From sequence record OR515477.1: a DNA stretch of 64,000 nucleotides, one strand, 5' to 3'. The notes under the pieces are model-generated. The model was not told the origin of the DNA and did not search any database. It saw nothing but the letters and a program-made list of their open reading frames with translations. Made by a program: the position numbers and the translations under genes. Shown one piece after another: positions 21,004-49,258 of this stretch (its first letter is position 1; each line of letters opens with the position of its first letter). The stretch comes from Escherichia phage Es2.

Positions 21004-21032
21004 TTGCTTATTTAGTGAAATTTAAATATAAT
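21004..21032 (+). promoter_or_regulatory. early-type sigma70 promoter
   Basis: TTGCTT, 17 bp, TATAAT, then TTTTATAAATTGG. Confidence 0.6.
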
Positions 21033-21058
21033 ATATTTTATAAATTGGAGGTACACAT

Positions 21059-21322
21059 ATGGGACTCTTTAGAAAGAAAATTTATCTAACAGAAAGGCAA
21101 GAACACAAACTTCTTACTCTATCAGAATACTATCATTTACCTTATGACTACTTTGTAGATAGAGCAATAGAGGAATTCTTGGATAGGGAATTAGAGGCTA
21201 TAAAACCTAAGCCTCCTGAGCCGTCTTTAGCATCAAATGGTCCACAAAGAGAGTACCCAAGAGTTCCACCAATGCCTCCTACTCCGCCAAAAACTAGAGT
21301 TGTAACAGAAGGTGAAAAATAA
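21059..21322 (+). CDS. hypothetical protein
   Basis: 87 aa ORF after promoter 21004-21032, GGAGG RBS. Confidence 0.5.
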   Translation: MGLFRKKIYLTERQEHKLLTLSEYYHLPYDYFVDRAIEEFLDRELEAIKPKPPEPSLASNGPQREYPRVPPMPPTPPKTRVVTEGEK

Positions 21323-21798
21323 TGTCGGTTTTCCACATTTACACAGATGGTGCTTGTAAGTCTAATCCAGGTCCAGGTGCTTGGGGTTTTATTGTCTATG
21401 ATGATAACGACGATCGTTTAGGTTCTAAATCTGGTTATAATCCTAAAACTACAAATAATGAGATGGAACTCACAGCTATCGTAGAAGCCCTACGTTGGTC
21501 TGTTAAAAAAGATAATAGACCAATTGCTATATATACTGACTCTGCTTATTGCAAAAATGGTATGGAAAGTTGGATGTTTTCTTGGCAAAGGAAAGGTTGG
21601 AAGAAAGCAGATGGTGAAGTCCCTCTTAATCTAGAACTTTGGCAGGAAGCATTTAAATTAACACAGCAGTATATCAACTTTCATAATACTAACCCTACCT
21701 TTATTAAGGTTAAAGGACATTCTGGTATCAGTGGTAATGAAGCTGCAGATGCATTGTGTAACACAGTTATTACTGAAGCTGAAATGGCTGAGATGTGA
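21322..21798 (+). CDS. rnhA: ribonuclease H
   Basis: YTDGACKSNPGPGAWG and TNNEMEL RNase HI motifs. Confidence 0.8.
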   Translation: MSVFHIYTDGACKSNPGPGAWGFIVYDDNDDRLGSKSGYNPKTTNNEMELTAIVEALRWSVKKDNRPIAIYTDSAYCKNGMESWMFSWQRKGWKKADGEVPLNLELWQEAFKLTQQYINFHNTNPTFIKVKGHSGISGNEAADALCNTVITEAEMAEM

Positions 21799-21818
21799 TA
21801 AATAAATTAAAAATTTTC

Positions 21819-21847
21819 TTGCTTAAAGCCCTCTAATTTAGTATAAT
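21819..21847 (+). promoter_or_regulatory. early-type sigma70 promoter
   Basis: TTGCTT, 17 bp, TATAAT. Confidence 0.6.
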
Positions 21848-21874
21848 ATTCGTATTGAAAGTGAGGAGGGCTTT

Positions 21875-22153
21875 ATGCGAATTTATAACTCAAATTCACT
21901 AGGATTTAAACCATTGAGAAAACGTGCACAATCACCTCGTCAAATAAGAAAGGCTAATATTGGTGAGCCAGAAACACGTCTTCCACCCCCTCCAGAACAA
22001 CGTTTAGTTTATCTGGACGAAGAATTAGCTGAACGCGAAAGAAAAGCTCAAGAAGAGATTGAGCGTAAGAAAATGTGTACTGCTCCGGCGTATAATAAAG
22101 GAGCGTATCAATATGTCTCAGATGCTGAACAAGCTAAGATGGTTGGTAGATAA
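21875..22153 (+). CDS. hypothetical protein
   Basis: 92 aa ORF with GAGGAGGG RBS after promoter 21819-21847. Confidence 0.5.
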   Translation: MRIYNSNSLGFKPLRKRAQSPRQIRKANIGEPETRLPPPPEQRLVYLDEELAERERKAQEEIERKKMCTAPAYNKGAYQYVSDAEQAKMVGR

Positions 22154-22169
22154 TTTTTAAAAAATTCAT

Positions 22170-22198
22170 TTGCTAAACGTTTCAAATTCTCGTATAAT
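22170..22198 (+). promoter_or_regulatory. early-type sigma70 promoter
   Basis: AAAAATTCATTTGCTA, 17 bp, TATAAT, then TTCATAAATTGAT. Confidence 0.65.
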
Positions 22199-22236
22199 AT
22201 ATTTCATAAATTGATAAACAAAAAGGAAAATAAATA

Positions 22237-22752
22237 ATGGCTAAGCAGAAAAACGCAAAAACTCAAGCAGCTCCGGCAGTTAAAACTTTCCCGCAGACCG
22301 AGGCTAATCGCAAAGCTCGTCTGGAACGTCACCTGCGTAAGCATCCTACCGATGCTCAGGCTGCGCAAGCACTGAATAATCCGGCTCCGATTCGTAAGAA
22401 GCCTAAAGCTAAAAATGCCGCCCGTAAATCCTACAAAATGGTTATGTATGTAGAAAATTACGGCCACAAATCTGTCCCAGTTTCCCTGAGCTTCAACGCT
22501 GGGGCTGAATTGTTCCCTCGTAATGGTATGTCTATGAAAGACTATGAGAAGGCAGTTAACCAGAAGCGTAAACCAACAGCAGATGTATTGCGTGATACTC
22601 GTGGACAGTTTGGTTCTGTTAAGCCAAATATCTTTGGCGTAGAGTATAGTAAAGATAATGTTCGTGCTCTGTGTTACGGTGTAGGCATTAAGTTCACGGG
22701 TGATTCTGCTCGTAAATCTGCTAAACCAGCGCGCAAGCGTAAAGCGAAGTAA
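22237..22752 (+). CDS. hypothetical basic protein (possible nucleic-acid binding)
   Basis: 171 aa, Lys/Arg-rich, host-like codon bias; terminator 22762-22784 follows. Confidence 0.5.
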   Translation: MAKQKNAKTQAAPAVKTFPQTEANRKARLERHLRKHPTDAQAAQALNNPAPIRKKPKAKNAARKSYKMVMYVENYGHKSVPVSLSFNAGAELFPRNGMSMKDYEKAVNQKRKPTADVLRDTRGQFGSVKPNIFGVEYSKDNVRALCYGVGIKFTGDSARKSAKPARKRKAK

Positions 22753-22761
22753 TAGATAAAT

Positions 22762-22784
22762 AGGGGCGAAAGCCCCTCTTATTT
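22762..22784 (+). terminator. rho-independent terminator
   Basis: AGGGGC-GAAA-GCCCCT followed by CTTATTT. Confidence 0.65.
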
Positions 22785-22793
22785 GGAGAAACT

Positions 22794-23030
22794 ATGCGTA
22801 ATTTTGTAGCAAAGAATGACTTTAATCGTGCTAGCACTCATAAGTCCGCTAGAGATTATACACGACTTTCTAGTCATGAGGTAATGGATACCTGTTATGA
22901 AGAGCTGGAAGGTAGCTGGAATGAGTGGCCCGACTTCTCTATGGAAGAGAACTGGGATGTCAGTGAGGATATGCTTCCTGGTTTTAAAGACCCCAAGAAG
23001 TGGGAGTCTATTAAAGAGACAGCTCTTTAA
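22794..23030 (+). CDS. hypothetical acidic protein
   Basis: 78 aa ORF. Confidence 0.45.
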   Translation: MRNFVAKNDFNRASTHKSARDYTRLSSHEVMDTCYEELEGSWNEWPDFSMEENWDVSEDMLPGFKDPKKWESIKETAL

Positions 23031-23058
23031 TAGTTTTCTACACAATAAAGGATAAGTT

Positions 23059-23760
23059 ATGAAAGTAAAACCATTTGGTATGCTAGATATTGAATCTCTG
23101 GGAACTCCAGGAGATTGTGGTACTACTCATATCGCAATGCCTTCTTTCGCTTTTGTGGCTATGCATGGAATTGATAAAGACCCTGATCTAATATTTGTTA
23201 CTTTGGATGTGCAGGATCAGCTTAATTCTGGTGCCAAAGTTACAGCATCTACTCTAGCATTCTGGATGGATCAAGCTAAACATAGCCCGTCTGCTATCCA
23301 CATTATGGAAGCCATGAAGGAACGTAATCCAAAACTGATTGTCTTCCAAAATGGTAAACATCATTGCACTAATAAATTAGGCTCAAACTATGCTGCCTTC
23401 TCTATGGCTCAAAATATTATGGAGTTGGCTCTAGGTGAAAATGCTTTGTATTATGGCAACGGTCCAGAGTTTGATATGACTATCTACTCTGCAAACACGT
23501 TCCATGCTGGAACCAATGAAGAGGTAGTTCCGTGGAAATTCTGGAATTTGGGTAATGTTCGATCTCTTCGTAACCTCTGGATGCAAGCTGGATACAGTTA
23601 TAAAGCTCTAGAGACCGAAGGTATTAGCTGGGCAATAGCTAAAATGGAGAAGATGGACACCATTCGTTATGGGATCTATCCGGTTAAGCACGACCCTGCA
23701 TTTGATGCCTTAGTTGAAAGCTATTGTGTTGCAGCTATGATCGAAAAAATGAAAATTTGA
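23059..23760 (+). CDS. putative DEDDh-type 3'-5' exonuclease-like protein
   Basis: N-terminal MLDIESLG (D-x-E) and C-terminal KHDPAFDA (H-x-A-x-x-DA) resemble DnaQ/RNase T exonuclease motifs. Confidence 0.4.
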   Translation: MKVKPFGMLDIESLGTPGDCGTTHIAMPSFAFVAMHGIDKDPDLIFVTLDVQDQLNSGAKVTASTLAFWMDQAKHSPSAIHIMEAMKERNPKLIVFQNGKHHCTNKLGSNYAAFSMAQNIMELALGENALYYGNGPEFDMTIYSANTFHAGTNEEVVPWKFWNLGNVRSLRNLWMQAGYSYKALETEGISWAIAKMEKMDTIRYGIYPVKHDPAFDALVESYCVAAMIEKMKI

Positions 23761-23761
23761 T

Positions 23762-23790
23762 TTGCTTCCGGCTCCAAAATTCTGTATAAT
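23762..23790 (+). promoter_or_regulatory. early-type sigma70 promoter
   Basis: TTGCTT, 17 bp, TGTATAAT. Confidence 0.6.
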
Positions 23791-23830
23791 ATATTCATAA
23801 ATTTGAGAAAACAATAAAAGGAAAACAAAT

Positions 23831-24013
23831 ATGCCAGTATCTAAAAATGTTCGTAAAAATGGTAAGAAAGCTACTCGTAATCTGGGTATCCGTCGTATGG
23901 CTGAACGTCAATCAGGTATCCAGAAAATCTTTGATCTGCTAAATCGTGCTAATCCTAAAATTGATAACAGTAATGATACTGTTCTGCGCACTCTGCTGGC
24001 AATTGGTCTGTAA
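23831..24013 (+). CDS. hypothetical basic protein
   Basis: 60 aa ORF after promoter 23762-23790. Confidence 0.45.
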   Translation: MPVSKNVRKNGKKATRNLGIRRMAERQSGIQKIFDLLNRANPKIDNSNDTVLRTLLAIGL

Positions 24014-24066
24014 TAGGCCAACTTTAAACAAATTCAAATCTCAAACTTCATATAAGGAAGCAAATA

Positions 24067-24705
24067 ATGACTACTCGTATTTCTAAAACTCGCGCTCTGG
24101 CAACTATCAAATCTCTGGAAGCTAAAATCCGTAAAGCTACTGAACAACATCTTCTGATTGCTGTTGGTGAAGGTAAGGATAAAAACCAGGTTGTAGTTGG
24201 CGCTGCAATCGAAGTAGCTGATCTGTCTACTCGTATTAAGACTGATTTCCAATCTCTGCTGGATATGATGTCTCGGCGTGATCGTATTAAATCTGCTCTG
24301 ATTAAGAGCAATGCAGAAACAATCGTTGAGATCGGTTCTCGTAAGATGACTGTTGCGGAAGCAATTGAAGCTAAGCGTTCTATGGAACTTAAAGCTCAAC
24401 TGCTGGCTAACATGCGTAAGCAGTTCCATGCCGCTACGGTTAAGTTTAATACGCAGAAAGCACAGTTTGATGCTAAATACGAGCGTTTGCAGGACAGCAT
24501 GGCTACCCGCGATAAGAAAACTTCCGAAGATGAAGTTAAAATGCAGCTCAACCTGCTGGAACTCAAGAATACTCCATTCTTGATTGATCCGCTGGAACTG
24601 GAGAAGCTGATTAAGCAGCATGACGAGGAATACCAGGACTTTGCAACAAATGTTGACTTTGTTCTGTCCGAGTCTAACGCCTCTACCTTTATTGAAGTAG
24701 AGTAA
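24067..24705 (+). CDS. hypothetical protein
   Basis: 212 aa ORF, strong codon bias, coiled-coil-like. Confidence 0.55.
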   Translation: MTTRISKTRALATIKSLEAKIRKATEQHLLIAVGEGKDKNQVVVGAAIEVADLSTRIKTDFQSLLDMMSRRDRIKSALIKSNAETIVEIGSRKMTVAEAIEAKRSMELKAQLLANMRKQFHAATVKFNTQKAQFDAKYERLQDSMATRDKKTSEDEVKMQLNLLELKNTPFLIDPLELEKLIKQHDEEYQDFATNVDFVLSESNASTFIEVE

Positions 24706-25088
24706 TAATTTAAAAGCTAGTAAATCGGTAGACGAAAGCCCAAGCATCTTACCTCGCAGCAGCGGTTGAAATACGAGGTTAAATAAGACCGCTGACCATA
24801 CTATAAAGTATAATCTATTGGAGATTATGTTTATTACACCAGCCTTTTAAGCTGACACGTAAGAACAAAGCGTCGTTGATATTACCGACACAACTTCAAA
24901 GATCAACATTTAAGTATGAAAGCTGAAAAGTTCAAAGAACTCAAACTTCTAAACTTCTAAAGCTAAAAGATGCAAAGTATTCGTTGATGATTCAAACCCT
25001 AGATCAAAGGTACATGGCTCATAAGATATGGCCTGTGGCGCCTCTAGGCTGTTTATCGGTTTACTAGTTTCACAATTTAAAAATGTAT

Positions 25089-25117
25089 TTGCTAATCTAC
25101 TAAATTATATGTATAAT
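25089..25117 (+). promoter_or_regulatory. early-type sigma70 promoter
   Basis: TTGCTA, 17 bp, TGTATAAT. Confidence 0.6.
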
Positions 25118-25147
25118 ATATTTTTAAATTGATGAAACGAGGCTATT

Positions 25148-25465
25148 ATGACTTTTCATATTTTGATTGATGATGTGCGTAATCTTCACGGAATGGACAT
25201 TATCATTCGAACCCCAGAAGCCGCTGTAGAGTTTCTGAATAAAACTGATACCACAGGCCATTTCGTTTATATGGATAATGACTTGGCTGTAGATGGTATG
25301 GAAGGTTATCAAATTCTTCGTTTACTCTTAGAATTTGGGCAGAGACCAAAGAAAGTGGTACTAGTAACCTCGAACCCAGTAGCTAAGCAAAATATGCGTA
25401 ATGATTTGCTTGACTTAGGGTATAAAGAAAATCCCAATCGTGTTGAATATGATTGGCAGGAGTAA
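25148..25465 (+). CDS. hypothetical protein
   Basis: 105 aa ORF after promoter 25089-25117. Confidence 0.5.
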   Translation: MTFHILIDDVRNLHGMDIIIRTPEAAVEFLNKTDTTGHFVYMDNDLAVDGMEGYQILRLLLEFGQRPKKVVLVTSNPVAKQNMRNDLLDLGYKENPNRVEYDWQE

Positions 25466-25470
25466 AAAGA

Positions 25471-25920
25471 ATGAAGGCAGCTTTGCTTTTAGTAGCTGCC
25501 CTTACCTTCAGCTTTAGTAGTCAGGCATCGCACGATGCAAAAGAAATAGATTGCATTGCTAAAAATATCTATTTCGAAAGTCGTGGTGAGGGCATAAAGG
25601 GAATGACGGCGATTGCACATGTTACTAAAAACCGTGTAAACTCCGGTAAATTCCCAGATTCCTACTGTAAAGTAGTATATCAGTCTAACCAGTTCTCTTG
25701 GGTATCTAAGAGACCAAAAGTTGATAAAACTGATGAGGCTTGGCAAACCGCTAAGAATTTAGCTAGAGTGATATACTACGTTGATTTACCACAAGATCCT
25801 ACACATGGAGCATTATACTTCCATAGTGGTAAAGATAAACCTTACTGGACAAAGAAATTTAAGAAAACAACTAAGATTAAGGGGCATACATTCTATAAAC
25901 CTGTTGTCACTAAAACTTAA
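25471..25920 (+). CDS. secreted SleB-like cell-wall hydrolase
   Basis: Signal peptide MKAALLLVAALTFSFSSQA then CIAKNIYFESRGE...AHVTKNRV...YCKVVYQSNQFSW (cell-wall hydrolase family signature). Confidence 0.6.
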   Translation: MKAALLLVAALTFSFSSQASHDAKEIDCIAKNIYFESRGEGIKGMTAIAHVTKNRVNSGKFPDSYCKVVYQSNQFSWVSKRPKVDKTDEAWQTAKNLARVIYYVDLPQDPTHGALYFHSGKDKPYWTKKFKKTTKIKGHTFYKPVVTKT

Positions 25921-25928
25921 AAATTTAC

Positions 25929-25957
25929 TTGCTTAAATACTTAAATTTCTGTATAAT
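25929..25957 (+). promoter_or_regulatory. early-type sigma70 promoter
   Basis: TTGCTT, 17 bp, TGTATAAT. Confidence 0.6.
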
Positions 25958-25988
25958 ACTTCCATAAATTAATGAGAGGAAGCGAAAT

Positions 25989-26159
25989 ATGAAATCAGTT
26001 GTAATTATTGGTGTTAACACTCGCGGTATTCGTACTACGAAAACTGTTAAAACTTCTAACGTTGCTGAAATCACTACGAACCCTAAAAAGTTTGATTTCG
26101 CCAAAGTCTCAGCAGTTATGACAGAGCAATCTTTTAACCAAGCATTGGGGATGAAATAA
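25989..26159 (+). CDS. hypothetical small protein
   Basis: 56 aa ORF (MKSVVIIGVNTRGIR...) with AGGAAG RBS after promoter 25929-25957; below track cutoff. Confidence 0.4.
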   Translation: MKSVVIIGVNTRGIRTTKTVKTSNVAEITTNPKKFDFAKVSAVMTEQSFNQALGMK

Positions 26160-26593
26160 TGGGTACGAATATGATTCGTGTGCTGCGAGAATTAATTGAA
26201 AAAGCTCGCAAACACGGTGATACTGTGTCAGTCAAGCACCTTAGTACGATTTTAGGTGACTTACAACGAATTGATAAAGATTGCGTATCTAGACTAGAGT
26301 TTACTAACTGGATTAAATCACAGTTCAAAGCAATTGAGAATACAATGACTTCTGCTGCAAAAGCAAATATCGAGTATACTCCAGATGCTGAATATCTCGA
26401 CTTGTTAGCAGGTCTAGAGTATGAATATGCTCTAGAGCAGTTAACTGAAGTTCAGATTCGTGAGTATTTTGCAGAACTGGTTAAATTAAACCCAGGTATT
26501 ACCAAAGCTCTATTAATGAAAACTATTAAGGCAGAATTTCCTGGACGTTATGACGGTAAAACAACTGCTTTGATTGCTAGTGAATTTTTCTAA
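26159..26593 (+). CDS. hypothetical protein
   Basis: 144 aa ORF, ATGA coupling. Confidence 0.5.
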   Translation: MGTNMIRVLRELIEKARKHGDTVSVKHLSTILGDLQRIDKDCVSRLEFTNWIKSQFKAIENTMTSAAKANIEYTPDAEYLDLLAGLEYEYALEQLTEVQIREYFAELVKLNPGITKALLMKTIKAEFPGRYDGKTTALIASEFF

Positions 26594-26601
26594 AAATTCA
26601 T

Positions 26602-26630
26602 TTGCTAAATGCTTATAAATTCTGTATAAT
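26602..26630 (+). promoter_or_regulatory. early-type sigma70 promoter heading the tRNA/ncRNA cluster
   Basis: AAAAATTCATTTGCTA, 17 bp, TGTATAAT. Confidence 0.6.
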
Positions 26631-26853
26631 ATATTCATAAATTAGGGAACAGCGAGCCGATTACGCTGAGTGCAGAATCCCAACCGGAGCGCATTGAATA
26701 GAGTCGGTGGGTTAGTTGTAAAACTAGTACACAGGGGGCGGCAATCCCGGTTAGTGGCTAGAACGTGTAAAATGAGGCGTCTGAAACCTCTCCCTTAAAC
26801 TCTTCTCTAATTTATAAATAGTGGGGTGTGGAAATCACTTATGTAGTAACACT

Positions 26854-26925
26854 GCCGTCCTAGTATAATTGGTATTATCAAGCCGTAACTGGTGGAAGAT
26901 GTAGGTTCGAATCCTACGGTCGGTA
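26854..26925 (+). tRNA. tRNA-like (isotype undetermined)
   Basis: T-arm GTAGG-TTCGAAT-CCTAC and acceptor GCCGTCC/GGTCGGT, but no clean anticodon arm. Confidence 0.35.
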
Positions 26926-27427
26926 AGAACTGGATAACTGATGCTTTTAACGTAAAAGCTTCCGAGGTTAGTTGCGCACTGCCTAAACCACGCGGTAGTT
27001 GGTTCCAGACTAACCAACCAGTCTGCTGAATAGTTTTATTACGATTTAACTATGTCCAGGCTAAAGAAGAACTTTAGAAAGTATTCTAGGATAGTGAAGT
27101 TCTTTCTCCATATCGGAGTAGTTTTTCAAGCTATCCATAAAGTGGGAAATGCTGGCATGAGAGATGCCACTAATGGTGCACAATAGCACAGGTAATTCGC
27201 GATAACTCCTGTTGAGTAGCAGCAAAAGGCGGGAAGTCATGACCCCAAGCCTAACCGAGTCCTCAATATACCGCAGGACATAACCACTAAGTCACCCTGA
27301 CTTAAACTGGAAAATAATAGACGTTACTGTATTTTGTCTTGAAATACTTAATGAGTGAGACTTATGACTCTCCCGGTATCGTCTGTATTTTTAAGAGTTT
27401 TTACGAGAGTTCTTAAAAATACTTAAA

Positions 27428-27499
27428 CGGGGTGTAGTCTAAGGGAGAGGCAGGAGTCTTCTAAATTCCTTTATGCAGGTTCGAATCCTGTCACCTCGG
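27428..27499 (+). tRNA. tRNA-Arg (anticodon TCT)
   Basis: Acceptor CGGGGTG/CACCTCG, anticodon loop CTTCTAA, T-arm GCAGG-TTCGAAT-CCTGT, CCA encoded. Confidence 0.7.
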
Positions 27500-28580: not shown

Positions 28581-29099
28581 ATGAATGTTGATGAGCTAAC
28601 ACAGCACCTCTTATCTAGAGGATTTGATACAGATAAATATCATTGCTGGTTAAGTCCAGCAGGGTGGCTAACAGTCCCGTTGTATGATTTCTCTGGGATG
28701 TTGAGGGGCTATCAAACTTATAATCCTTCTGCTCCAAAAGGTCATGGTAAGTGTCCCTTTGAAGCTAAATATTTTACCTATTCTACTACCCAGTGTGTAT
28801 GGGGATTAGAAACTCTCAATGGAGATGAAAAAGTAGTATTGGTCGCTGAATCTGTATTTAAGGCAGTTGCGTTACATAATGCTGGTTATCCAGCCCTAGC
28901 AATGTTGGGTTCTTCTCCAGGAAAAGCGTTATTAAAGCAACTGAAATTATTACCTTTTAAATTGGTAGCTGTCGGGGATAACGATCCTGCGGGTGAAAAA
29001 TTTGCTAGAAAATTAAACGGCTTTGTTTCTCCTGTAGATGTGGATGAGATGTCTACCGAAAACTTGAAAAATTTTCTTGCTATGAAGCTAAATTTCTAA
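28581..29099 (+). CDS. hypothetical protein
   Basis: 172 aa ORF with AGGAG RBS. Confidence 0.5.
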   Translation: MNVDELTQHLLSRGFDTDKYHCWLSPAGWLTVPLYDFSGMLRGYQTYNPSAPKGHGKCPFEAKYFTYSTTQCVWGLETLNGDEKVVLVAESVFKAVALHNAGYPALAMLGSSPGKALLKQLKLLPFKLVAVGDNDPAGEKFARKLNGFVSPVDVDEMSTENLKNFLAMKLNF

Positions 29100-29120
29100 T
29101 ATAATATATCTTATAAATTC

Positions 29121-29206
29121 GGAAGAATAGCATAATGGTATTGCAGCAGATTGCTAATCTGTCGGTTTGAAATATAGCCTTGTGGGTTCGATTCCCACTT
29201 CTTCCG
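29121..29206 (+). tRNA. tRNA-Ser (anticodon GCT)
   Basis: Acceptor GGAAGAA/TTCTTCC, anticodon loop TTGCTAA, long variable arm, T-arm GTGGG-TTCGATT-CCCAC, CCA encoded. Confidence 0.75.
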
Positions 29207-30285: not shown

Positions 30286-30315
30286 CTTGCCTTTTGCTTT
30301 AAATTTCTGATATAA
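30286..30315 (+). promoter_or_regulatory. early-type sigma70 promoter
   Basis: TTGCCT, 18 bp, TATAAT. Confidence 0.5.
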
Positions 30316-30346
30316 TAGTTATATAAATTAATGAAGGAGTTAACAA

Positions 30347-30658: not shown

Positions 30659-30687
30659 TTGCTCAGTGCCTTAAAACTTGGTATAAT
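30659..30687 (+). promoter_or_regulatory. early-type sigma70 promoter overlapping a 12 bp-stem hairpin
   Basis: TTGCTC, 17 bp, TGGTATAAT; -35 lies inside the inverted repeat GCACTGAGCAAG...CTTGCTCAGTGC (30631-30669). Confidence 0.55.
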
Positions 30688-30705
30688 AGTTATCTAATTT
30701 GGAAA

Positions 30706-30812
30706 CATATTTGAATGAGAAGTAACTAAGCGAGTTGCTTTGAGGGGTAAAGTCAGGATAGCCTGAAATATTCCACCTTGAGTTTAACCGACTTACTTTT
30801 CATTCAAATATG
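30706..30812 (+). ncRNA. long hairpin element (20 bp stem enclosing 67 nt) at start of tRNA-Tyr transcript
   Basis: CATATTTGAATGAGAAGTAA (30706-30725) pairs with TTACTTTTCATTCAAATATG (30793-30812); lies between promoter -10 (30682-30687) and tRNA-Tyr. Confidence 0.4.
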
Positions 30813-31685: not shown

Positions 31686-31973
31686 TTGAGGGAGCTGCTG
31701 ATGCATCCTGAAAACTTCTTTATTTACTGCGCTGATAAGTCGCTGAAACGTAGAATTAACAAAGTCTATCATTATAGTGCTAGTCAACAGCCTTATGTAT
31801 ACGCTTTTGACGGTGATCACATTCCACTAGAACAATTATCTTGTGATTACATGATATTGAAGAACTTTGATGAGACGAAGATCTCGAGCGTTCATAATCG
31901 ACAGAATCCATTGACGTGGAAATATAAGAAGAAAAAGAAAGGCATCAAATTCTTAAAAAATGTAGTTGCTTAG
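31686..31973 (+). CDS. hypothetical protein
   Basis: 95 aa ORF; a promoter overlaps its 3' end. Confidence 0.45.
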   Translation: MRELLMHPENFFIYCADKSLKRRINKVYHYSASQQPYVYAFDGDHIPLEQLSCDYMILKNFDETKISSVHNRQNPLTWKYKKKKKGIKFLKNVVA

Positions 31974-31994
31974 TTTCCAAAAGTTCTGTATAAT
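31966..31994 (+). promoter_or_regulatory. early-type sigma70 promoter
   Basis: TTGCTT, 17 bp, TGTATAAT. Confidence 0.6.
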
Positions 31995-32005
31995 AATTAC
32001 ATAAA

Positions 32006-32248
32006 TTGAACTGGAGAAGCAACATGACAGAACAAGAATTGAATGAACGTAAGCTGGTAATGCTTCGCTTACTAAATATTTTCTCTGGTATGGACGGTGG
32101 AATTGACTTTGTTCATCTACGTTCTTTCGTAGAAGAAGCTGAAGGCGAATCTATCACTAAAATCCTTAAACACATGGGATTACTTTTAGATGCTGCTAAT
32201 GTGGCTACTGAATATAAAATAGAAGATCTACCGGAGCGTGTTAAATGA
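32006..32248 (+). CDS. hypothetical protein
   Basis: 80 aa ORF after promoter 31966-31994. Confidence 0.5.
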   Translation: MNWRSNMTEQELNERKLVMLRLLNIFSGMDGGIDFVHLRSFVEEAEGESITKILKHMGLLLDAANVATEYKIEDLPERVK

Positions 32249-33872: not shown

Positions 33873-33901
33873 TTGCTATTTTTCTTAATTATCTGTATAA
33901 T
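33873..33901 (+). promoter_or_regulatory. early-type sigma70 promoter
   Basis: AAAAATTCATTTGCTA, 17 bp, TGTATAAT. Confidence 0.6.
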
Positions 33902-33933
33902 ATATTTTATAAAGTGAAGAGAAGGAAAGCAAA

Positions 33934-34623: not shown

Positions 34624-34983
34624 TTGCAAATGCAATTATCAAGCAAGATTCAAGGTTATTTCGGTCATGTAACAATGGAGTTCGCTATCTCTAAAGGTTG
34701 GGACTTCGAACAAGATTTAGCTGAGTTCTACAAAGATATTGATCTGAACGTACCGTACATGGGACTTTCTACTGGTCAGGAGATCACAGAAGCCGATGTA
34801 TTCAAGGCAAGTCAAGGTGAGGTAACACCTAGTTTTGCCGAGTTCTGGTTAGGCATTACGTTAAAAGAAGATGCACCAGATAGTGGTGTACTAATGTCTA
34901 GTATGCACTCTGGAAGTTCCGATTACCTTTTCATTAGCGATGTTAAGGAAATACAAGAAGTCTGCAAAAATGTACTTGCTTGA
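34624..34983 (+). CDS. hypothetical protein
   Basis: 119 aa ORF with AAGGA RBS. Confidence 0.5.
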   Translation: MQMQLSSKIQGYFGHVTMEFAISKGWDFEQDLAEFYKDIDLNVPYMGLSTGQEITEADVFKASQGEVTPSFAEFWLGITLKEDAPDSGVLMSSMHSGSSDYLFISDVKEIQEVCKNVLA

Positions 34984-35004
34984 TGCTTAATTTCTTGTTA
35001 TAAT
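34976..35004 (+). promoter_or_regulatory. early-type sigma70 promoter
   Basis: TTGCTT, 17 bp, TATAAT; followed by hairpin GATGAGGA-GAAA-TCCTCATC. Confidence 0.55.
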
Positions 35005-35242
35005 ATTTATATAAATTGATGAGGAGAAATCCTCATCATAGTTCACTAAGGTATTAGCTCGACCTAGGACTGGCTGCCAAAAAGCACGATCCCTACGATT
35101 CGGGAAAAGTTCTAGATTGGTCCACTAGATTCAGCGGCAACTGAATAGTGTATTGGGTTTGCGAGATGACGTAGTTCCTTCCGCTCTAAGCGAAGGTGCT
35201 GTAGTTACGCCGAGCTAATAGCCTTAGTAAACTAAAGAATTT

Positions 35243-37103: not shown

Positions 37104-37132
37104 TTGCTTTCTCTCTTATTTATTGTTATAAT
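37104..37132 (+). promoter_or_regulatory. early-type sigma70 promoter
   Basis: AAAAATTCATTTGCTT, 17 bp, TATAAT. Confidence 0.6.
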
Positions 37133-37162
37133 ATTCATATAAATTAATGAGAGGGAAGCCAA

Positions 37163-39437: not shown

Positions 39438-39466
39438 TTGCTAAACCTCTCTTTTCTTGCTATAAT
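39438..39466 (+). promoter_or_regulatory. early-type sigma70 promoter
   Basis: TTGCTA, 17 bp, TATAAT. Confidence 0.6.
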
Positions 39467-39496
39467 ATATTTATAAATTGATAAGAGAGGTTTGAA

Positions 39497-41207: not shown

Positions 41208-41236
41208 TTGCTTAGATGCCCAAACTTTTGTATAAT
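41208..41236 (+). promoter_or_regulatory. early-type sigma70 promoter
   Basis: TTGCTT, 17 bp, TGTATAAT. Confidence 0.6.
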
Positions 41237-41267
41237 ATGTTTATAGATTGAGGCAAGAGGATTAAAT

Positions 41268-44176: not shown

Positions 44177-44833
44177 TTGGAAAAGTTCTTACAATTATTA
44201 ACGGTACTGCTCCAAGAAGCGAAAGATCCAGCATCGCTTCTTAAACGTCTGCTAACTATCTTAGTTGCTGTCATTATTTTCTTATTTGTTAGTAATACTA
44301 GCGAGGTGATGTCATTCTTAAAGACTTTCTCCACGTCTGCGGTTCTACAGGATGTTCAAACTCAAAGGATAGATAACTTTCCTAATGTAGCTAGAGAAAA
44401 AAGCATGGTACTCTTTTCTCAAACGGGTGCGGATGCTGTTTTTGTCGTCAAGTATAAACCCGATGCCATTAATGATTATTCTAACATTATTGCATGGGAA
44501 AGCAATGCGCAATTAGATAGGGCTGACTTGGCCGATAAAGCGGTAAATAAAACGTCTGAGCTATATAGACGTCACTTGGAAGGCTTTAACTACGCATCGG
44601 ATTTAAGTGTAAAAGTAAATAAATACATGGGGTTAGATATACCTGCGTTTAAGAACGTTACTTTTAATTACATATACACTTGTCCATATTTCAATCTAAA
44701 CAATATCTATGCTGGATATATTGGTATTGCTTGGAAAGATAATCCTGTAGATGCAGCCGATTCTGAGAAATTTAACGAGTATTTAACAAAGCTCTGTTCC
44801 CCACAACAGAGATCTTTAGGTAGATCAATATGA
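44177..44833 (+). CDS. putative holin
   Basis: 218 aa with N-terminal TM (LTILVAVIIFLFV), directly upstream of and overlapping the endolysin gene. Confidence 0.6.
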   Translation: MEKFLQLLTVLLQEAKDPASLLKRLLTILVAVIIFLFVSNTSEVMSFLKTFSTSAVLQDVQTQRIDNFPNVAREKSMVLFSQTGADAVFVVKYKPDAINDYSNIIAWESNAQLDRADLADKAVNKTSELYRRHLEGFNYASDLSVKVNKYMGLDIPAFKNVTFNYIYTCPYFNLNNIYAGYIGIAWKDNPVDAADSEKFNEYLTKLCSPQQRSLGRSI

Positions 44834-45750: not shown

Positions 45751-45779
45751 TTGACTTTTAGCCCTAGTTATTATATAAT
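45751..45779 (+). promoter_or_regulatory. sigma70 promoter
   Basis: TTGACT, 17 bp, TATAAT. Confidence 0.6.
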
Positions 45780-45812
45780 ATATACATAAATTAGTTAAGA
45801 GAGGTATATATT

Positions 45813-46244: not shown

Positions 46245-46527
46245 ATTAGTATATCTATTGAAAGGTTCTACTTGCAACCCTTGCAAAATGTTTGAGCCAG
46301 TATTTGATAAAGTAGTCAATGAATATAATTTGGAAGTCCATAAAGAGACTGATAATACAGAATTAATGCAGAAATTTGGCGTACGCCAAGTTCCTGTAGT
46401 AGTTCTGGCAGATCGCTTACCTAATGGTCGAGTAGAAGCTAATCATATTTTGATTGGACGTCAGCTTCGTAAAGAAACTATGCACGAAGCTATTAAAAAT
46501 TTCCTGGATGATAATCCAGAGGATTAA
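46237..46527 (+). CDS. thioredoxin-fold protein (CxxC)
   Basis: N-terminal STCNPCKMFEP CxxC motif, 96 aa. Confidence 0.5.
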   Translation: MSKLVYLLKGSTCNPCKMFEPVFDKVVNEYNLEVHKETDNTELMQKFGVRQVPVVVLADRLPNGRVEANHILIGRQLRKETMHEAIKNFLDDNPED

Positions 46528-46568: not shown

Positions 46569-46597
46569 TTGCTTTCAGCTAAAAATTTTGGTATAAT
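46569..46597 (+). promoter_or_regulatory. early-type sigma70 promoter
   Basis: TTGCTT, 17 bp, TGGTATAAT. Confidence 0.6.
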
Positions 46598-46624
46598 ACT
46601 TATATAAATTGATTGGAGGATTAA

Positions 46625-46870
46625 ATGTTAGCGGAACAAGCAAAACGTTTAGCTAGGATAAATAGAGCTGCTCTTCTCAAGAGCAGAAAGAAGCCGTATA
46701 GATACGTTAAAAGACGGATTCTAGCTTCTGTAGAGGCTGGGGGTTCTTTTATACAATTTAATCGTGATGAAATTAGTTATGAAGCTATAAAAGCCCTCTA
46801 TAAAGATGGTTATACTCTAAAACTATCAAATAATTATGGTACAACTATTTTAAATGTTATTTGGGAATAA
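46625..46870 (+). CDS. hypothetical protein
   Basis: 81 aa ORF after promoter 46569-46597. Confidence 0.5.
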   Translation: MLAEQAKRLARINRAALLKSRKKPYRYVKRRILASVEAGGSFIQFNRDEISYEAIKALYKDGYTLKLSNNYGTTILNVIWE

Positions 46871-46872
46871 TT

Positions 46873-47736
46873 ATGAAAAAAGAATTTAATGTACATAAAA
46901 CACTAGTAGTACCTGATGATGTTAACTTATTCTTTGTTGGTGATATTCATGGATGCAACGATTTACTAGAAGATGCACTACAATTAGCTGGATATAACGG
47001 CAAGAAAGATTGCGTTGTATGCGTGGGAGATTTAATTGATCGAGGCACGCAGAACCTACAAGTTTTAGCTAAATTCCTGTATAATCCACGCTTTATCAGT
47101 GTCCGTGGTAATCATGACCAATTTATGATTGTGGGAGATTGGGCTAACTGGATGTATAACGGTGGTATGTGGGCTATGAATGAACTAGATGCAGATACCA
47201 TTAAAAATATTGCCGAAGACATGGCTGAAAAAATGCCAGTATTCCTAACTGTTAAACATCGCGGCAAGAAGTATGGTGTTGTTCATGGTGGTGTACCTTT
47301 TACATACAAAGAATGTGGTAATGAAGTAGAAACCCCAGTATGGGATAATCTTATTGCACAAGTAGAAGCAGCTAAGGAAGACCCACACGACCATCCTGGA
47401 TACCATGTTGAGCCATACTTATGGGATCGAGATGTAATCCAAGAAATAGGTTTTCACTTAGCTAAAAATGGTGAAGAACACTCATATTTCCAGCGTTATG
47501 CAGGGTTTAAAGAGAAATACATGGTAGAAGTACCTCCAGTTAATGGGGTAGACTTTGTATTTCATGGACATACCGGAGTACCTTACCCGATTTTATACCA
47601 GAACCGTGTTTATCTTGATACTGGCGGTGTTTTCAACGGGCAGTTGACGGTTGCGCAAGTTAATGATGAAACTGGGAAAATCACAACATTTACCACGCTT
47701 CGAGAAGATAGCTGTGGTGTACAGAGGATTCTTTAA
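46873..47736 (+). CDS. Ser/Thr protein phosphatase (calcineurin-like metallophosphoesterase)
   Basis: GDIHGC, GDLIDRG and RGNHD motifs. Confidence 0.75.
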   Translation: MKKEFNVHKTLVVPDDVNLFFVGDIHGCNDLLEDALQLAGYNGKKDCVVCVGDLIDRGTQNLQVLAKFLYNPRFISVRGNHDQFMIVGDWANWMYNGGMWAMNELDADTIKNIAEDMAEKMPVFLTVKHRGKKYGVVHGGVPFTYKECGNEVETPVWDNLIAQVEAAKEDPHDHPGYHVEPYLWDRDVIQEIGFHLAKNGEEHSYFQRYAGFKEKYMVEVPPVNGVDFVFHGHTGVPYPILYQNRVYLDTGGVFNGQLTVAQVNDETGKITTFTTLREDSCGVQRIL

Positions 47737-48023
47737 TGAATGATAGAATGAAAGAAGTACAAGAAGAATTACGAGCAATGCGTATTGATGCCCTTCGTTG
47801 GAGAGCATTAGTTAATGCTTTCGTCAAAGGAGATACCGGAGTAATATATTCTGGAATAGCAGTCAATTTTTGTTTTAATTCTCCTGCTGAAATAGAGATA
47901 GAAACAAGGCTTACTACCTACCTTAATGAGGTAGACCTTAAGGAAGGAGAGACTCCCGGGGAGTTTAAAACTAGAGTATTAACTACCTGGGTTGATAATT
48001 TAATACAAAAAAGGAGTAAGTGA
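47736..48023 (+). CDS. hypothetical protein
   Basis: 95 aa ORF, ATGA coupling. Confidence 0.45.
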   Translation: MNDRMKEVQEELRAMRIDALRWRALVNAFVKGDTGVIYSGIAVNFCFNSPAEIEIETRLTTYLNEVDLKEGETPGEFKTRVLTTWVDNLIQKRSK

Positions 48024-48613
48024 TGAAGGTTAAATTCTGGTCAGACTTGCACTTAGACCACCCTGGAGCACTACGTTTCCGTCCGTGGTTTAAGAACATG
48101 AAAGAGCACGATGAGTATATTCTAGATACTTTATCCAAGCATATTGGTAAACGAACAAAACTTATTTTGCTAGGAGATATTGCAGTAGGTCGTGAAGGTC
48201 TGGCCAAATTAAAGTCGGTTATCCACAATGTCCCTAATCAACTCATTATGGGTAATCATGATGCGGAGCGTCAAGGACTGAGTATTAGGGACTTAGCGGA
48301 AGTTTATGACGATATTCAAGCTCTAGGCAAACAGACTGGAGGTGGCAAAAAGTTTTGGCTATCTCACTGCCCTTTGCACCCTAATGAACTTCGTGGCAAA
48401 CTAAATATTCACGGACATGTACATACTACTTCTTTACGTGATCCACGTTATATTAATGTCTCATTTGAAATGAGTAGAACTCCAATTCCACTAGAGGATA
48501 TTGTGTCTGGTAAGTTTACTAGTTACGATAGAGTGGTTAATTGTACTACCGGCGAGGTATTACAAATAGGAGAAGACGTAGCTGCTGTATTGCGTGGCGA
48601 TATAAATGTCTAA
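48020..48613 (+). CDS. calcineurin-like metallophosphoesterase (second copy)
   Basis: LGDIAVGREG, GNHD and HGHVH motifs. Confidence 0.6.
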   Translation: MMKVKFWSDLHLDHPGALRFRPWFKNMKEHDEYILDTLSKHIGKRTKLILLGDIAVGREGLAKLKSVIHNVPNQLIMGNHDAERQGLSIRDLAEVYDDIQALGKQTGGGKKFWLSHCPLHPNELRGKLNIHGHVHTTSLRDPRYINVSFEMSRTPIPLEDIVSGKFTSYDRVVNCTTGEVLQIGEDVAAVLRGDINV

Positions 48614-48721
48614 GTATATAGCTAGGGCTATTATTAAACGAATTATACAAGTGATAGCAATACTTATAGTTATTTGTATTGCCATTGGCACAGGACTAGG
48701 CATTTTAATTAAAAGTTTTAT

Positions 48722-48750
48722 TTGCTAAAATGCCTAAATTTCTGTATAAT
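48722..48750 (+). promoter_or_regulatory. early-type sigma70 promoter
   Basis: TTGCTA, 17 bp, TGTATAAT. Confidence 0.6.
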
Positions 48751-48780
48751 TACTTTATAAATTGATGAGAAGGAATAAAA

Positions 48781-49212
48781 ATGAACAAAGTCGATAAAGC
48801 CTTAGTTTTCGCAGCAGCAGATAAGTTTGAACAAGTCAAGGCAACTTTCCGAACCTTGTTCCAGTCTTACGTTCAAGATAAGTCTAATCCTATTTCTGAA
48901 CGCTTAATGGTTTGGGAATGTCATGCTTGCAATGCCCTGCTAATTGCGGATTATCGTAGTGATATAGATAAAGATCTCTGTGAAATCCTCATCCCTGAGG
49001 AAGCAGAACGTTATCAGCTAATCTCTTTTCAAGATTTGGCAGAGCACATAATCCCTGATGATCTTTGGGATAAATACTATGGTGATCCTGAAGATGAGGG
49101 GATGACTCCAGAAGCATGTATTGAGTTAATCTGTAAGGATCATCCTGAAATTGCAGAAAAATTTGAAAAAGTTTTTGCTTCTGAGTTCTCTGGTGTTGTT
49201 AACGATTGGTAA
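48781..49212 (+). CDS. hypothetical protein
   Basis: 143 aa ORF after promoter 48722-48750. Confidence 0.5.
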   Translation: MNKVDKALVFAAADKFEQVKATFRTLFQSYVQDKSNPISERLMVWECHACNALLIADYRSDIDKDLCEILIPEEAERYQLISFQDLAEHIIPDDLWDKYYGDPEDEGMTPEACIELICKDHPEIAEKFEKVFASEFSGVVNDW

Positions 49213-49229
49213 GTAATTAAAAAATTCAG

Positions 49230-49258
49230 TTGCTTTAAGCCTTAAAATTCTGTATAAT
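49230..49258 (+). promoter_or_regulatory. early-type sigma70 promoter
   Basis: TTGCTT, 17 bp, TGTATAAT. Confidence 0.6.

What the first reader, a model, noticed from the sequence alone, without database searches (positions are those of the whole stretch)
21004..49258. More than 25 copies of one promoter family with a conserved initial transcribed box
Nearly every transcription unit is preceded by A/T-rich upstream DNA, TTGCT(T/A), a 17 bp spacer often with an extended TG, TATAAT, and then, 6-9 nt downstream, a conserved (C/T)ATAAATT(G/A)AT(G)AG element. The copy at 4927-4955 (minus strand) is nearly identical to the classic T5 N25 promoter as I recall it. The conserved downstream box may be an initial-transcribed-sequence signal, a phage regulator binding site or a processing site.
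Basis: partly seen in the sequence, partly recalled or inferred. Interest (0 to 1): 0.4.

Follow-up and report, generated by a model that had tools for sequence, protein, structure and literature searches.

The report
T5-type early promoters with conserved start box
The window is a T5-like phage genome whose early genes and tRNA genes are driven by about 30 copies of the classic strong T5 early promoter, including the N25 counterpart; the conserved box after the -10 element is real, but it is the known start-of-transcript region of these promoters.

Summary
The window is a Tequintavirus, 96-98% identical to phages IME178 and AKFV33.

- **Promoter family.** TTGCTW-N17-TATAAT occurs 23 times against 0.23 expected. 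A position-weight scan finds 31 family members, 28 of them strong. Twenty lie inside 21004-49258, and all point the same way as their genes.
- **The box.** Exact ATAAATT starts 6-7 nt after TATAAT in 16 of 24 strict-core promoters, against 0.12 expected from local shuffles. The published N25 numbering puts its first A at +1.
- **Two parts.** -6..+7 is kept even before tRNA and stable-RNA genes. The purine-rich +8..+16 is mostly the Shine-Dalgarno sequence of a fixed leader, with the start codon at +20..+28.
- **N25.** The copy at 4905-4955(-) is the ortholog of T5 P-N25, upstream of D2, and matches it at 35 of 36 positions from -16 to +20.
- **Prior knowledge.** GenBank record AY543070 already annotates these promoters as 75-bp features that include the box. 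Changing the N25 initial transcribed sequence is reported to cut productive RNA about 10-fold.
- **Class and range.** In T5 the box marks early promoters and is absent from the named pre-early and late ones. It is as conserved between orthologs as the two hexamers, and it persists in Klebsiella and Vibrio T5-like phages.
- **Still open.** Whether the box also acts as a class-specific regulatory or sigma70 pause signal is untested.

The parts
1500..1550 (-). Early promoter, -35 to +16 (TTGCTA-17-TATAAT-atttat-ATAAATT). Ortholog of T5 P-K28a, upstream of ligB. Predicted +1 at 1515.
2675..2725 (-). Early promoter with exact box. Ortholog of the T5 promoter at 65284-65358, upstream of ligA. Predicted +1 at 2690.
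3891..3941 (-). Early promoter with variant box ATAGTTT and a long leader (start codon at +52). Ortholog of T5 P-N26, upstream of D3.
4905..4955 (-). Ortholog of T5 P-N25, upstream of D2. -35 is TTGCAT. Matches N25 at 35 of 36 positions from -16 to +20. Predicted +1 at 4920.
8447..8498 (-). Early promoter (TTGCAG) with degenerate box TTGAATT. Ortholog of the T5 promoter at 58999-59073, upstream of the origin-binding protein gene.
11684..11734 (-). Early promoter with exact box followed by TGAGAGAGG. Ortholog of the T5 promoter at 55708-55782.
13902..13952 (+). First plus-strand early promoter, with variant box GTAAGTT and a long leader. Ortholog of the T5 promoter at 53638-53712.
17499..17549 (+). 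Early promoter with variant box ATTAGTT. Ortholog of the T5 promoter at 50061-50135.
21004..21055 (+). Early promoter with exact box, 7-nt discriminator, start codon at +20.
21819..21869 (+). Early promoter core with a divergent downstream region (ATTGAAA). Ortholog of the T5 promoter at 46337-46411.
22170..22221 (+). Ortholog of T5 P-H207. Exact box. The Shine-Dalgarno sequence lies further downstream, with the start codon at +32.
23762..23812 (+). Early promoter with exact box and start codon at +35. Ortholog of the T5 promoter at 44393-44467.
25089..25139 (+). Early promoter with box TTAAATT. Ortholog of the T5 promoter at 43067-43141.
25929..25979 (+). Ortholog of T5 P-D/E33. Exact box.
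26602..26652 (+). Ortholog of T5 P16-17. Exact box in front of a non-coding RNA and tRNA-Arg region. Similarity to T5 ends at +12.
29077..29128 (+). Ortholog of T5 P15b. Exact box. tRNA-Ser starts at 29121, 8 nt after the predicted +1 at 29113.
30287..30338 (+). Ortholog of T5 P15c. TTGCCT with an 18-bp spacer. Exact box.
30659..30709 (+). Ortholog of T5 P14a. TTGCTC, variant box CTAATTT, in front of tRNA-Tyr.
31966..32016 (+). Ortholog of T5 P14b. Exact box.
33873..33924 (+). Ortholog of T5 P13a. Box ATAAAGT.
34976..35026 (+). Ortholog of T5 P13b. Exact box followed by a strong hairpin at 35017-35038. No coding sequence follows; it drives stable RNA and tRNA genes.
37104..37154 (+). Ortholog of T5 P11. 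Exact box.
39438..39488 (+). Early promoter with exact box. Ortholog of the T5 promoter at 26722-26796.
41208..41258 (+). Early promoter with box ATAGATT. Ortholog of the T5 promoter at 24443-24517.
45751..45801 (+). Early promoter with -35 TTGACT and exact box. Ortholog of the T5 promoter at 19368-19442.
46569..46619 (+). Early promoter with exact box. Ortholog of the T5 promoter at 18550-18624.
48722..48772 (+). Early promoter with exact box. Ortholog of T5 P-F30.
49230..49280 (+). Early promoter with exact box. The highest-scoring copy (73 bits). 100% identical to the T5 promoter at 16245-16319 over -90..+60.
52120..52170 (+). Weak family member (TTGACG, no box; 15.8 bits). Ortholog of the T5 promoter at 13212-13286.

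Best explanation
These are the early-class sigma70 promoters of a T5-like phage, read by the unmodified host RNA polymerase. Each is a cassette of about 75-90 bp with these elements:
- an A-tract UP-like element at -46..-41;
- a -35 hexamer TTGCTW;
- a 17-bp spacer;
- a consensus -10 hexamer TATAAT;
- a 6-7 nt A/T-rich discriminator (A at -6, T at -3, pyrimidine at -1);
- transcription starting at the A of ATAAATT.

The 'box' has two parts. Positions -1..+7 (Y-ATAAATT) are the start-site context and the first transcribed bases. Positions +8..+16 are purine-rich and are usually the Shine-Dalgarno sequence of a short unstructured leader that places the start codon at +20..+28.

The most likely job of the transcribed part is to let the polymerase leave promoters that hold it very tightly. 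An A/T-rich, purine-rich, C-poor initial transcribed sequence limits abortive cycling and speeds escape. The same sequence then gives an unstructured, efficiently translated 5' leader.

Basis of each step:
- Shown here: the anatomy, the statistics, the orthology to annotated T5 promoters, the early-class restriction in T5, and conservation between orthologs and across the family.
- Taken from the literature on N25: the position of +1 and the roughly 10-fold effect of the initial transcribed sequence on productive transcription.
- Inferred: that the same holds for every copy in this window.
For: **Enrichment and specificity.** The core pattern and the box are far above chance.

**Orthology.** The window matches T5-like phages at 96-98% identity. 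AY543070 annotates 75-bp promoter features at the orthologous positions, including P-N25, P-N26, P-K28a, P-H207, P-D/E33 and P11-P16. By my count the P-N25 feature runs from -55 to +20, so it includes the box. Sixteen window promoters align to their T5 orthologs over at least 120 of 150 nt, at 86-100% identity.

**Position of +1.** The N25 oligonucleotide for -12..+2 is TATAATAGATTCAT (PMC7472727).

**Function of the transcribed part.** Changing N25 +3..+20 to antiDSR reduces full-length RNA to 1/10. The escape half-life is 3 min for native N25 and about 45 min for the anti-ITS. The authors conclude that the native sequence evolved to ease escape (PMC12464699).

**Composition fits that role.** Positions +1..+20 are 4% C, and +8..+20 are 78% purine, against 54% for the coding strand overall.

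**Not simply a ribosome-binding site.** ATAAATT is exact at three of the four promoters that drive non-coding RNA or tRNA genes (26602, 29077, 34976), whereas +8..+16 is not conserved there.

**Leaders are unstructured.** Mean folding energy is -3.0 kcal/mol against -4.9 for random 40-mers, with a mean z-score of -0.27.

**Purifying selection between orthologs.** Positions +1..+16 show 6 mismatches in 256 window-versus-T5 comparisons. Flanks show 127 in 1264 (Fisher p = 1.5e-5). Spacer plus discriminator show 28 in 368 (p = 0.004).

**Variants are stable, not homogenised.** Ortholog-specific variants persist across genera: ATAGTTT at N26 and GTAAGTT at the polymerase promoter.

**Family-wide conservation.** The consensus ATA..TT followed by purines recurs in Klebsiella phage Roth49, Vibrio phage Brizo and Vibrio phage D367 (78%, 45% and 38% amino-acid identity in the origin-binding protein).
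Against: - No transcription start or expression data exist for this phage. +1 is transferred from N25.
- The escape function has been measured on N25 only, largely in vitro, and by replacing +3..+20 as a block. It does not assign a role to ATAAATT itself.
- Escape optimisation alone does not obviously require such a specific heptamer.
- Escape optimisation alone does not explain why the box is confined to the early class.
- Eight or nine family members work with degenerate boxes (ATAGTTT, GTAAGTT, ATTAGTT, TTGAATT), so the exact sequence is not essential.
Confidence: 0.85

Rival explanations
1. The box is a class-specific regulatory signal. It, or the box together with the discriminator, would be the feature through which T5 factors shut off early transcription at the early-to-late switch. 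Candidates are the RNA-polymerase-binding protein gpT5.026, D5 and C2.
For: - In T5, exact TATAAT-N6-ATAAATT occurs 18 times in the early region, once in the late region, and once per terminal repeat.
- The one late-region site is the llp promoter. From my own recollection, llp is expressed early.
- Among annotated T5 promoters, 24 of 38 early ones carry the box with at most one mismatch, against 1 of 8 pre-early or late ones (hand count; Fisher p = 0.016).
- P-H22, P-G25 and P-J5 lack the box.
- Klimuk et al. report that gpT5.026 weakens RNA polymerase binding to the N25 -12/+2 strand. They note that early and late promoters differ mainly just downstream of -10, and that the switch mechanism is unknown (PMC7472727).
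- In my ortholog comparison, +1..+16 (98% and 97% identity) is better conserved than the discriminator they point to (88.5%).
- The box survives in Vibrio phages with only 38-45% protein identity.
Against: - No binding data exist.
- Restriction to the early class would also arise if the early promoters simply share ancestry and a need for high strength.
- The gpT5.026 knockout is viable and its effect is moderate.
- Several early promoters lack a good box.
Confidence: 0.2
2. The box is a -10-like element that keeps sigma70 bound and causes a promoter-proximal pause at about +10..+20.
For: - Sun et al. 2021 (PMC7876045) report that sigma70-dependent proximal pauses need a consensus -10, a 6-7 nt spacer and a Y-R(+1)-Y start motif. 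The 16-20 nt class also needs a -10-like region 11 bp downstream of the -10 element.
- Here all 28 strong promoters have TATAAT and a 6-7 nt spacer.
- 25 of 28 have the Y-R-Y start motif.
- 13 of 28 have a hexamer at -1..+5 within one mismatch of TATAAT, typically TATAAA, which begins 11 bp after the -10 element.
- TAAATT at +2..+7 carries the A at position 2 and the T at position 6 of a -10 hexamer.
Against: - No paper retrieved links T5 N25 to sigma-dependent pausing.
- N25 itself has C at -1, giving CATAAA.
- TATAAA lacks the position-6 T, and TAAATT lies two bases beyond the register reported by Sun et al.
- No Q-type antiterminator was found. The one 'antitermination protein Q' label in a related record is a 61-aa CxxC protein with no Q-family match.
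Confidence: 0.12
3. The box acts at the RNA level, as a translation enhancer, an mRNA-stability determinant or a processing site at the 5' end of early transcripts.
For: - The start codon sits at +20..+28 in most protein-coding units, so promoter, leader and Shine-Dalgarno sequence form one cassette.
- The leaders are A/U- and purine-rich and unstructured.
- AAAUU fits the loose RNase E motif RN/WUU. This is my own recollection and was not checked here.
Against: - ATAAATT is equally exact in front of tRNA-Ser, where the whole leader is 8 nt, and in front of two non-coding RNA regions, where nothing is translated.
- No conserved secondary structure is present.
- A cleavage 4-5 nt from a 5' end would have no evident consequence.
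- The purine-rich half explains translation without needing ATAAATT.
Confidence: 0.1
4. The box is a binding site for a host nucleoid protein such as H-NS.
For: ATAAATT is identical to the last 7 nt of the 10-bp high-affinity H-NS motif tCGATAAATT, including its central TpA step (Lang et al. 2007, PMC2094087).
Against: - The CG part of the motif is absent; the phage sequence is TTY.
- The motif has low information content in A/T-rich DNA.
- A lytic phage has no evident reason to keep a silencer nucleation site on its roughly 30 strongest promoters.
- Early DNA enters the cell only after the pre-early functions have acted.
Confidence: 0.03

Closest known systems
Bacteriophage T5 early promoters (P-N25, P-N26, P-K28a, P-H207, P-D/E33, P11-P16), cited as Gentz & Bujard 1985 and annotated in GenBank AY543070
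   Same: The architecture and sequence are the same, and the window copies occupy orthologous positions. Sixteen aligned pairs are 86-100% identical. The N25 ortholog matches at 35 of 36 positions from -16 to +20. The 75-bp annotated features include the box.
   Different: - Minor sequence differences, such as TTGCAT instead of TTGCTT in the N25 ortholog.
- The P15a ortholog has lost its -35 and UP region to a terminator hairpin.
- The T5 P12 unit is absent from this phage.
The N25 initial transcribed sequence, also called the downstream sequence region (Kammerer et al. 1986; Hsu laboratory)
   Same: The window copy has the native N25 sequence ATAAATTTGAGAGAGGAG. Its reported function is to set the rate of promoter escape and the amount of abortive synthesis (PMC12464699).
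   Different: The published work treats one promoter and replaces +3..+20 as a block. It does not address why +1..+7 recurs at about 20 promoters, or why it is restricted to the early class.
Sigma70-dependent promoter-proximal pause promoters (lambda pR', lac, and the E. coli G1p/G1d classes of Sun et al. 2021)
   Same: Consensus -10 element, 6-7 nt spacer, Y-R-Y start motif, and a -10-like hexamer beginning 11 bp downstream of the -10 element in about half the copies.
   Different: No pause has been shown for any T5 promoter. The -10-like hexamers are imperfect at key positions or out of register. No Q-like factor was found.
T4 early promoters and their mobile promoter/stem-loop cassettes (from my own recollection, not checked here)
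   Same: Dozens of copies of one unusually strong sigma70 promoter type, with conserved positions beyond the hexamers and an upstream A-tract, scattered through the early region of a virulent coliphage.
   Different: The consensus differs; as I recall, T4 uses GTTTAC-like -35 regions. Here synteny breakpoints against T5 fall on promoters only 3 times out of 26, against about 6% expected by length, so there is no clear evidence of cassette-mediated shuffling.

Membership tests
T5 early promoter class | Sigma70-type -35 and -10 hexamers (TTGCTW and TATAAT) separated by 17 +/- 1 bp | tested here: met
   23 strict matches against 0.23 expected. 27 of 28 strong copies have a 17-bp spacer.
T5 early promoter class | A/T-rich upstream region around -43 (UP-like A-tract) | tested here: met
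   Positions -45..-42 are A in 20-23 of 24 promoters, and -40 is T in 24 of 24.
T5 early promoter class | Conserved region downstream of -10 (A at -6, T at -3, pyrimidine at -1, then ATAAATT and purines) | tested here: met
   16 of 24 exact and 19 of 24 within one mismatch, against 0.12 and 1.6 expected. Per-column information.
T5 early promoter class | Orthology to promoters mapped or annotated in T5 | tested here: met
   Annotated promoter features in AY543070 at syntenic positions. 16 pairs align at 86-100% identity. The N25 ortholog lies upstream of D2.
T5 early promoter class | Transcription start at the A of cATAAATT | not testable with these tools
   Known for N25 from its published -12/+2 oligonucleotide TATAATAGATTCAT (PMC7472727). 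No RNA data exist for this phage.
T5 early promoter class | Early timing of expression after second-step DNA transfer | not testable with these tools
   Inferred from gene content (replication, nucleotide metabolism and tRNA genes) and from orthology.
Escape-optimised initial transcribed sequence (N25 type) | Purine-rich, A/T-rich non-template strand over about +1..+20 | tested here: met
   +1..+20 is 70% purine and 4% C. +8..+20 is 78% purine, against 54% background.
Escape-optimised initial transcribed sequence (N25 type) | A measured effect on the abortive-to-productive ratio when the sequence is changed | not testable with these tools
   Reported for N25 only (PMC12464699).
Sigma70-dependent promoter-proximal pause element | A -10-like hexamer in the initial transcribed region, about 11 bp downstream of the -10 element, with A at position 2 and T at position 6 | tested here: inconclusive
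   13 of 28 have a hexamer at -1..+5 within one mismatch of TATAAT, but usually TATAAA, which lacks T at position 6. TAAATT at +2..+7 has both key bases but sits two bases beyond the reported register.
Sigma70-dependent promoter-proximal pause element | An observed sigma-dependent, Gre-sensitive pause at +10..+20 | not testable with these tools
   No paper retrieved reports this for T5 promoters.
H-NS high-affinity site (tCGATAAATT) | Match to the full 10-bp motif | tested here: not met
   Only the 3' 7 nt match. The CG is replaced by TY.
Structured RNA or processing element | Conserved secondary structure, or a match to a curated RNA family | tested here: not met
   Mean z-score of -0.27 for +1..+40, with the box unpaired. 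Rfam finds only tRNAs.

The most novel reading that the evidence does not exclude
The heptamer at +1..+7 may be more than an escape-friendly start sequence. It could be the cis-acting mark of the early class across the Demerecviridae. The data here do not exclude this. They point to +1..+16, rather than the discriminator ATATT, as the best-conserved class-specific segment.
Probability: 0.2. Interest if true: 0.55.

Novelty: already known. Interest (0 to 1): 0.2.

Why it matters
As it stands, this is a correct rediscovery of a textbook element. [quoted passage not shown] - It splits the 'box' into a start-site and initial-transcribed core and a ribosome-binding part.
- It shows that between orthologs the core is as conserved as the -35 and -10 hexamers, and more conserved than the discriminator that was recently proposed as the class determinant.
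- It shows that the core is restricted to the early class in T5.
- It shows that the core persists in Klebsiella and Vibrio T5-like phages.

How T5 switches between temporal classes using only host sigma70 polymerase is still unresolved (PMC7472727). The box is a concrete sequence that can be mutated to test this.

Tried and rejected
1. **Generic sigma70 scan with TTGACA/TATAAT.** No excess over shuffles. Only the family-specific pattern is enriched.
2. **RNA structure or processing site.** The leaders are less structured than random genomic 40-mers. Only the P13b ortholog has a hairpin, and it starts after the box. Rfam gives only tRNAs.
3. **Promoter cassettes as recombination joints, as in T4.** Of 26 alignment ends against T5 in 23-53 kb, 3 fall within -60..+40 of a start site, against about 6% expected by length. 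This is not convincing. Most breaks lie at homing-endonuclease and tRNA indels. Only one genome pair was compared.
4. **Q-type antitermination.** The 'antitermination protein Q' label in phage PK7 belongs to a 61-aa CxxC protein with no significant Pfam match.
5. **H-NS site.** Only a partial motif match.
6. **Concerted evolution as the sole cause of similarity.** Ortholog-specific variants (ATAGTTT at N26, GTAAGTT at the polymerase promoter) persist across genera, which argues against homogenisation.
7. **Literature.**
   - Gentz & Bujard 1985 and Kammerer et al. 1986 are not held in the library. Their content is cited only through later papers.
   - Two searches for T5 transcription-start mapping or promoter reviews found nothing useful.
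   - The first search, for T5 early promoters and N25, also returned nothing.

Full report
**Identity of the window.** Positions 21000-41000 match 639 phage records. The best matches are Escherichia phages IME178 (97.9% identity) and AKFV33 (96.7%), both T5-like. The window runs in the opposite orientation to the T5 reference record AY543070. It covers, in order:
- the replication genes (ligB, ligA, D3, D2, origin-binding protein) on the minus strand up to about 13.7 kb;
- the large plus-strand early block, which holds the tRNA cluster (23 tRNAs by ARAGORN, 24 by Rfam);
- the pre-early terminal-repeat region from about 54 kb.

- The strict pattern TTGCTW-N16-18-TATAAT occurs 23 times against 0.23 expected. 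A generic TTGACA/TATAAT scan shows no enrichment.
- A weight matrix over -48..+24 finds 31 sites scoring above every shuffled control. Of these, 28 exceed 29 bits, against a shuffle maximum of 8.9. All are co-oriented with the genes, and 20 lie inside the stated interval.
- I selected promoters only by their -35/-10 core, to avoid circularity. Of those 24, 16 have exact ATAAATT and 19 have it within one mismatch, starting 6 or 7 nt after TATAAT.
- Shuffling each promoter's own downstream 30 nt gives 0.12 and 1.6 expected. The columns discriminate A from T, so this is not mere A/T-richness.
- Of the 46 ATAAATT heptamers on both strands of the window, 18 sit at this exact promoter position.

**Anatomy.** Aligned on the -10 element, the consensus is AAAAaTTtAt-TTGCTw-(17 bp; GC-rich near -25, an A-tract at -21..-19, a T-tract at -17..-15)-TATAAT-A-t-w-T-w-Y-ATAAATT-gAtgAgA.
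- The published N25 oligonucleotide for -12..+2 is TATAATAGATTCAT (PMC7472727). This puts +1 at the A of ATAAATT.
- The TG dinucleotide is canonical TGnTATAAT in 11 of 28 promoters and abuts the hexamer (TGTATAAT) in 10.
- In most protein-coding units the start codon lies at +20..+28, so GAGAGG at about +10..+16 is the Shine-Dalgarno sequence.
- Where the leader is longer (22170, 23762), or where the product is RNA, ATAAATT is retained but +8..+16 is not. The RNA cases are 26602, 29077 (where tRNA-Ser begins 8 nt after +1) and 34976.
- The box therefore has two parts: a start-site and initial-transcribed core at -6..+7, and a translation-related purine tract.
- The leaders contain 4% C. They are 78% purine at +8..+20. 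They are less structured than random genomic 40-mers, and the box is unpaired.

**Relation to T5.** AY543070 annotates 75-bp 'promoter' features at the orthologous places, many with the classical names P-N25, P-N26, P-K28a/b, P-H207, P-D/E33, P10a-P16-17 and P31A/B. By my count the P-N25 feature runs from -55 to +20, so it includes the box.
- The window copy at 4905-4955(-) lies upstream of the D2 homologue. It matches P-N25 at 35 of 36 positions from -16 to +20, but at only 25 of 34 from -50 to -17.
- Across 16 ortholog pairs (window against T5), identity by segment is:

| Segment | Identity |
|---|---|
| -35 hexamer | 99% |
| -10 hexamer | 100% |
| +1..+7 | 98% |
| +8..+16 | 97% |
| Spacer | 94% |
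| Discriminator | 88.5% |
| Flanks | 87.5-93% |

- The +1..+16 segment is significantly better conserved than the flanks (p = 1.5e-5) and than spacer plus discriminator (p = 0.004).

**Class specificity.** Exact TATAAT-N6-ATAAATT occurs 18 times in the T5 early region, once in the late region (at the llp promoter) and once per terminal repeat.
- The named pre-early promoter P-H22 and the late promoters P-G25 and P-J5 lack the box. They also use TTGACA- or TTGATA-type -35 hexamers.
- A hand count gives 24 of 38 early promoters with the box, against 1 of 8 others (p = 0.016).

**Wider family.** The same architecture appears in three more distant phages. Identity is for the origin-binding protein.

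| Phage | Protein identity | Typical sequence after TATAAT |
|---|---|---|
| Klebsiella phage Roth49 | 78% | ATTCTC-ATAGTTTGA, AGTTTC-ATAAATTCGAGAGAGG |
| Vibrio phage Brizo | 45% | AGTTCC-ATAAATTGAAAAGGAG |
| Vibrio phage D367 | 38% | Weakened to Y-ATAAA followed by purines |

Variants specific to one ortholog are kept across genera: ATAGTTT at N26 and GTAAGTT at the polymerase promoter. This points to purifying selection on each copy, not homogenisation.

**Mechanism.** The literature supports a function for the transcribed part.
- N25 is limited by the rate of promoter escape.
- Replacing +3..+20 lowers full-length RNA about 10-fold and lengthens the escape half-life from 3 to about 45 min.
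- The native A/T-rich, purine-rich sequence is said to have evolved for fast escape (PMC12464699).
- I infer that the same applies to the whole family, and that the unstructured leader also serves translation.

**Rivals.**
- A class-specific regulatory target. Klimuk et al. found that gpT5.026 weakens polymerase contacts with -5/+2 and stated that the switch mechanism is unknown.
- A sigma70 retention or pause element. These promoters meet the published sequence requirements only in part, and no report links N25 to such pausing.
- An RNA-level role for ATAAATT. This is disfavoured by the tRNA and non-coding-RNA promoters.
- An H-NS site. Only a partial motif match.

**Verdict.** The finding is accurate but already known. 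Its interpretation as an initial-transcribed-sequence signal is the supported one. The remaining open point is whether the box also carries temporal-class information.

Noticed in passing
window 29113-29121: At the P15b ortholog the predicted transcript start (29113) is only 8 nt upstream of tRNA-Ser (29121). The whole 5' leader to be removed would be the box itself, AUAAAUUC.
   Followed up: partly
window 35017-35038: A strong hairpin, GATGAGGAG-AAAT-CCTCATC, lies directly after the box of the P13b ortholog (-13.8 kcal/mol, z-score -5.9). It marks the 5' end of the region that T5 annotates as stable RNA 'RNA2H'. It pairs a sequence that elsewhere serves as the Shine-Dalgarno tract.
   Followed up: partly
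window 28508-28563: The ortholog of T5 P15a is decayed. A terminator hairpin (28508-28539) occupies the place of the UP element and -35 hexamer. Only TATAAT and a degenerate box, GTAAATC, remain. The neighbouring T5 P12 unit (T5.077-079) is absent from this phage.
   Followed up: partly
window 26854-26925 and 29216-29290: Rfam reports two tRNA hits that ARAGORN did not list. The first (35.5 bits) lies in the region corresponding to T5 'RNAX'. The second (40.3 bits) corresponds to a tRNA annotated as Met in phage PK7 and as Ile(CAU) in T5.
   Followed up: no
window 59248-59266 (-), equivalent to T5 6075-6093 (+): An exact TATAAT-aactgc-ATAAATT lies in the pre-early terminal-repeat region. It has only a poor -35 hexamer (TAGCCA, 18-bp spacer). 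AY543070 does not annotate it as a promoter.
   Followed up: partly
window 26637-26652 against T5 P16-17: Similarity to T5 stops at about +12 of this promoter. The promoter and box are kept while the downstream non-coding RNA sequence differs. Similar alignment ends occur at +38 of the 31966 promoter and at -57 of the 34976 promoter.
   Followed up: partly
public records MG065692, MG065642 and OR847284: Records named Campylobacter phage C13, Campylobacter phage A148 and Listeria phage LM 4-11-1 closely match T5-like coliphage sequence: 98.5% DNA identity for C13, 91% protein identity for A148, and 99.8% protein identity for LM 4-11-1. These are probably contaminants or mislabelled hosts.
   Followed up: no
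window 29511-29696 (+): A 61-aa protein with four CxxC motifs is labelled 'antitermination protein Q' in Salmonella phage PK7. It has no significant Pfam match, only sub-threshold zinc-ribbon hits. The label looks spurious.
   Followed up: yes
window 13686-13952: This is the divergence point of the two early transcription blocks. Within about 270 bp there are a weak TTGACA-type promoter on the minus strand (13686) and two plus-strand promoters (13761-13789 without a box, 13902-13952 with box GTAAGTT). The arrangement mirrors T5 53638-53958.
   Followed up: partly
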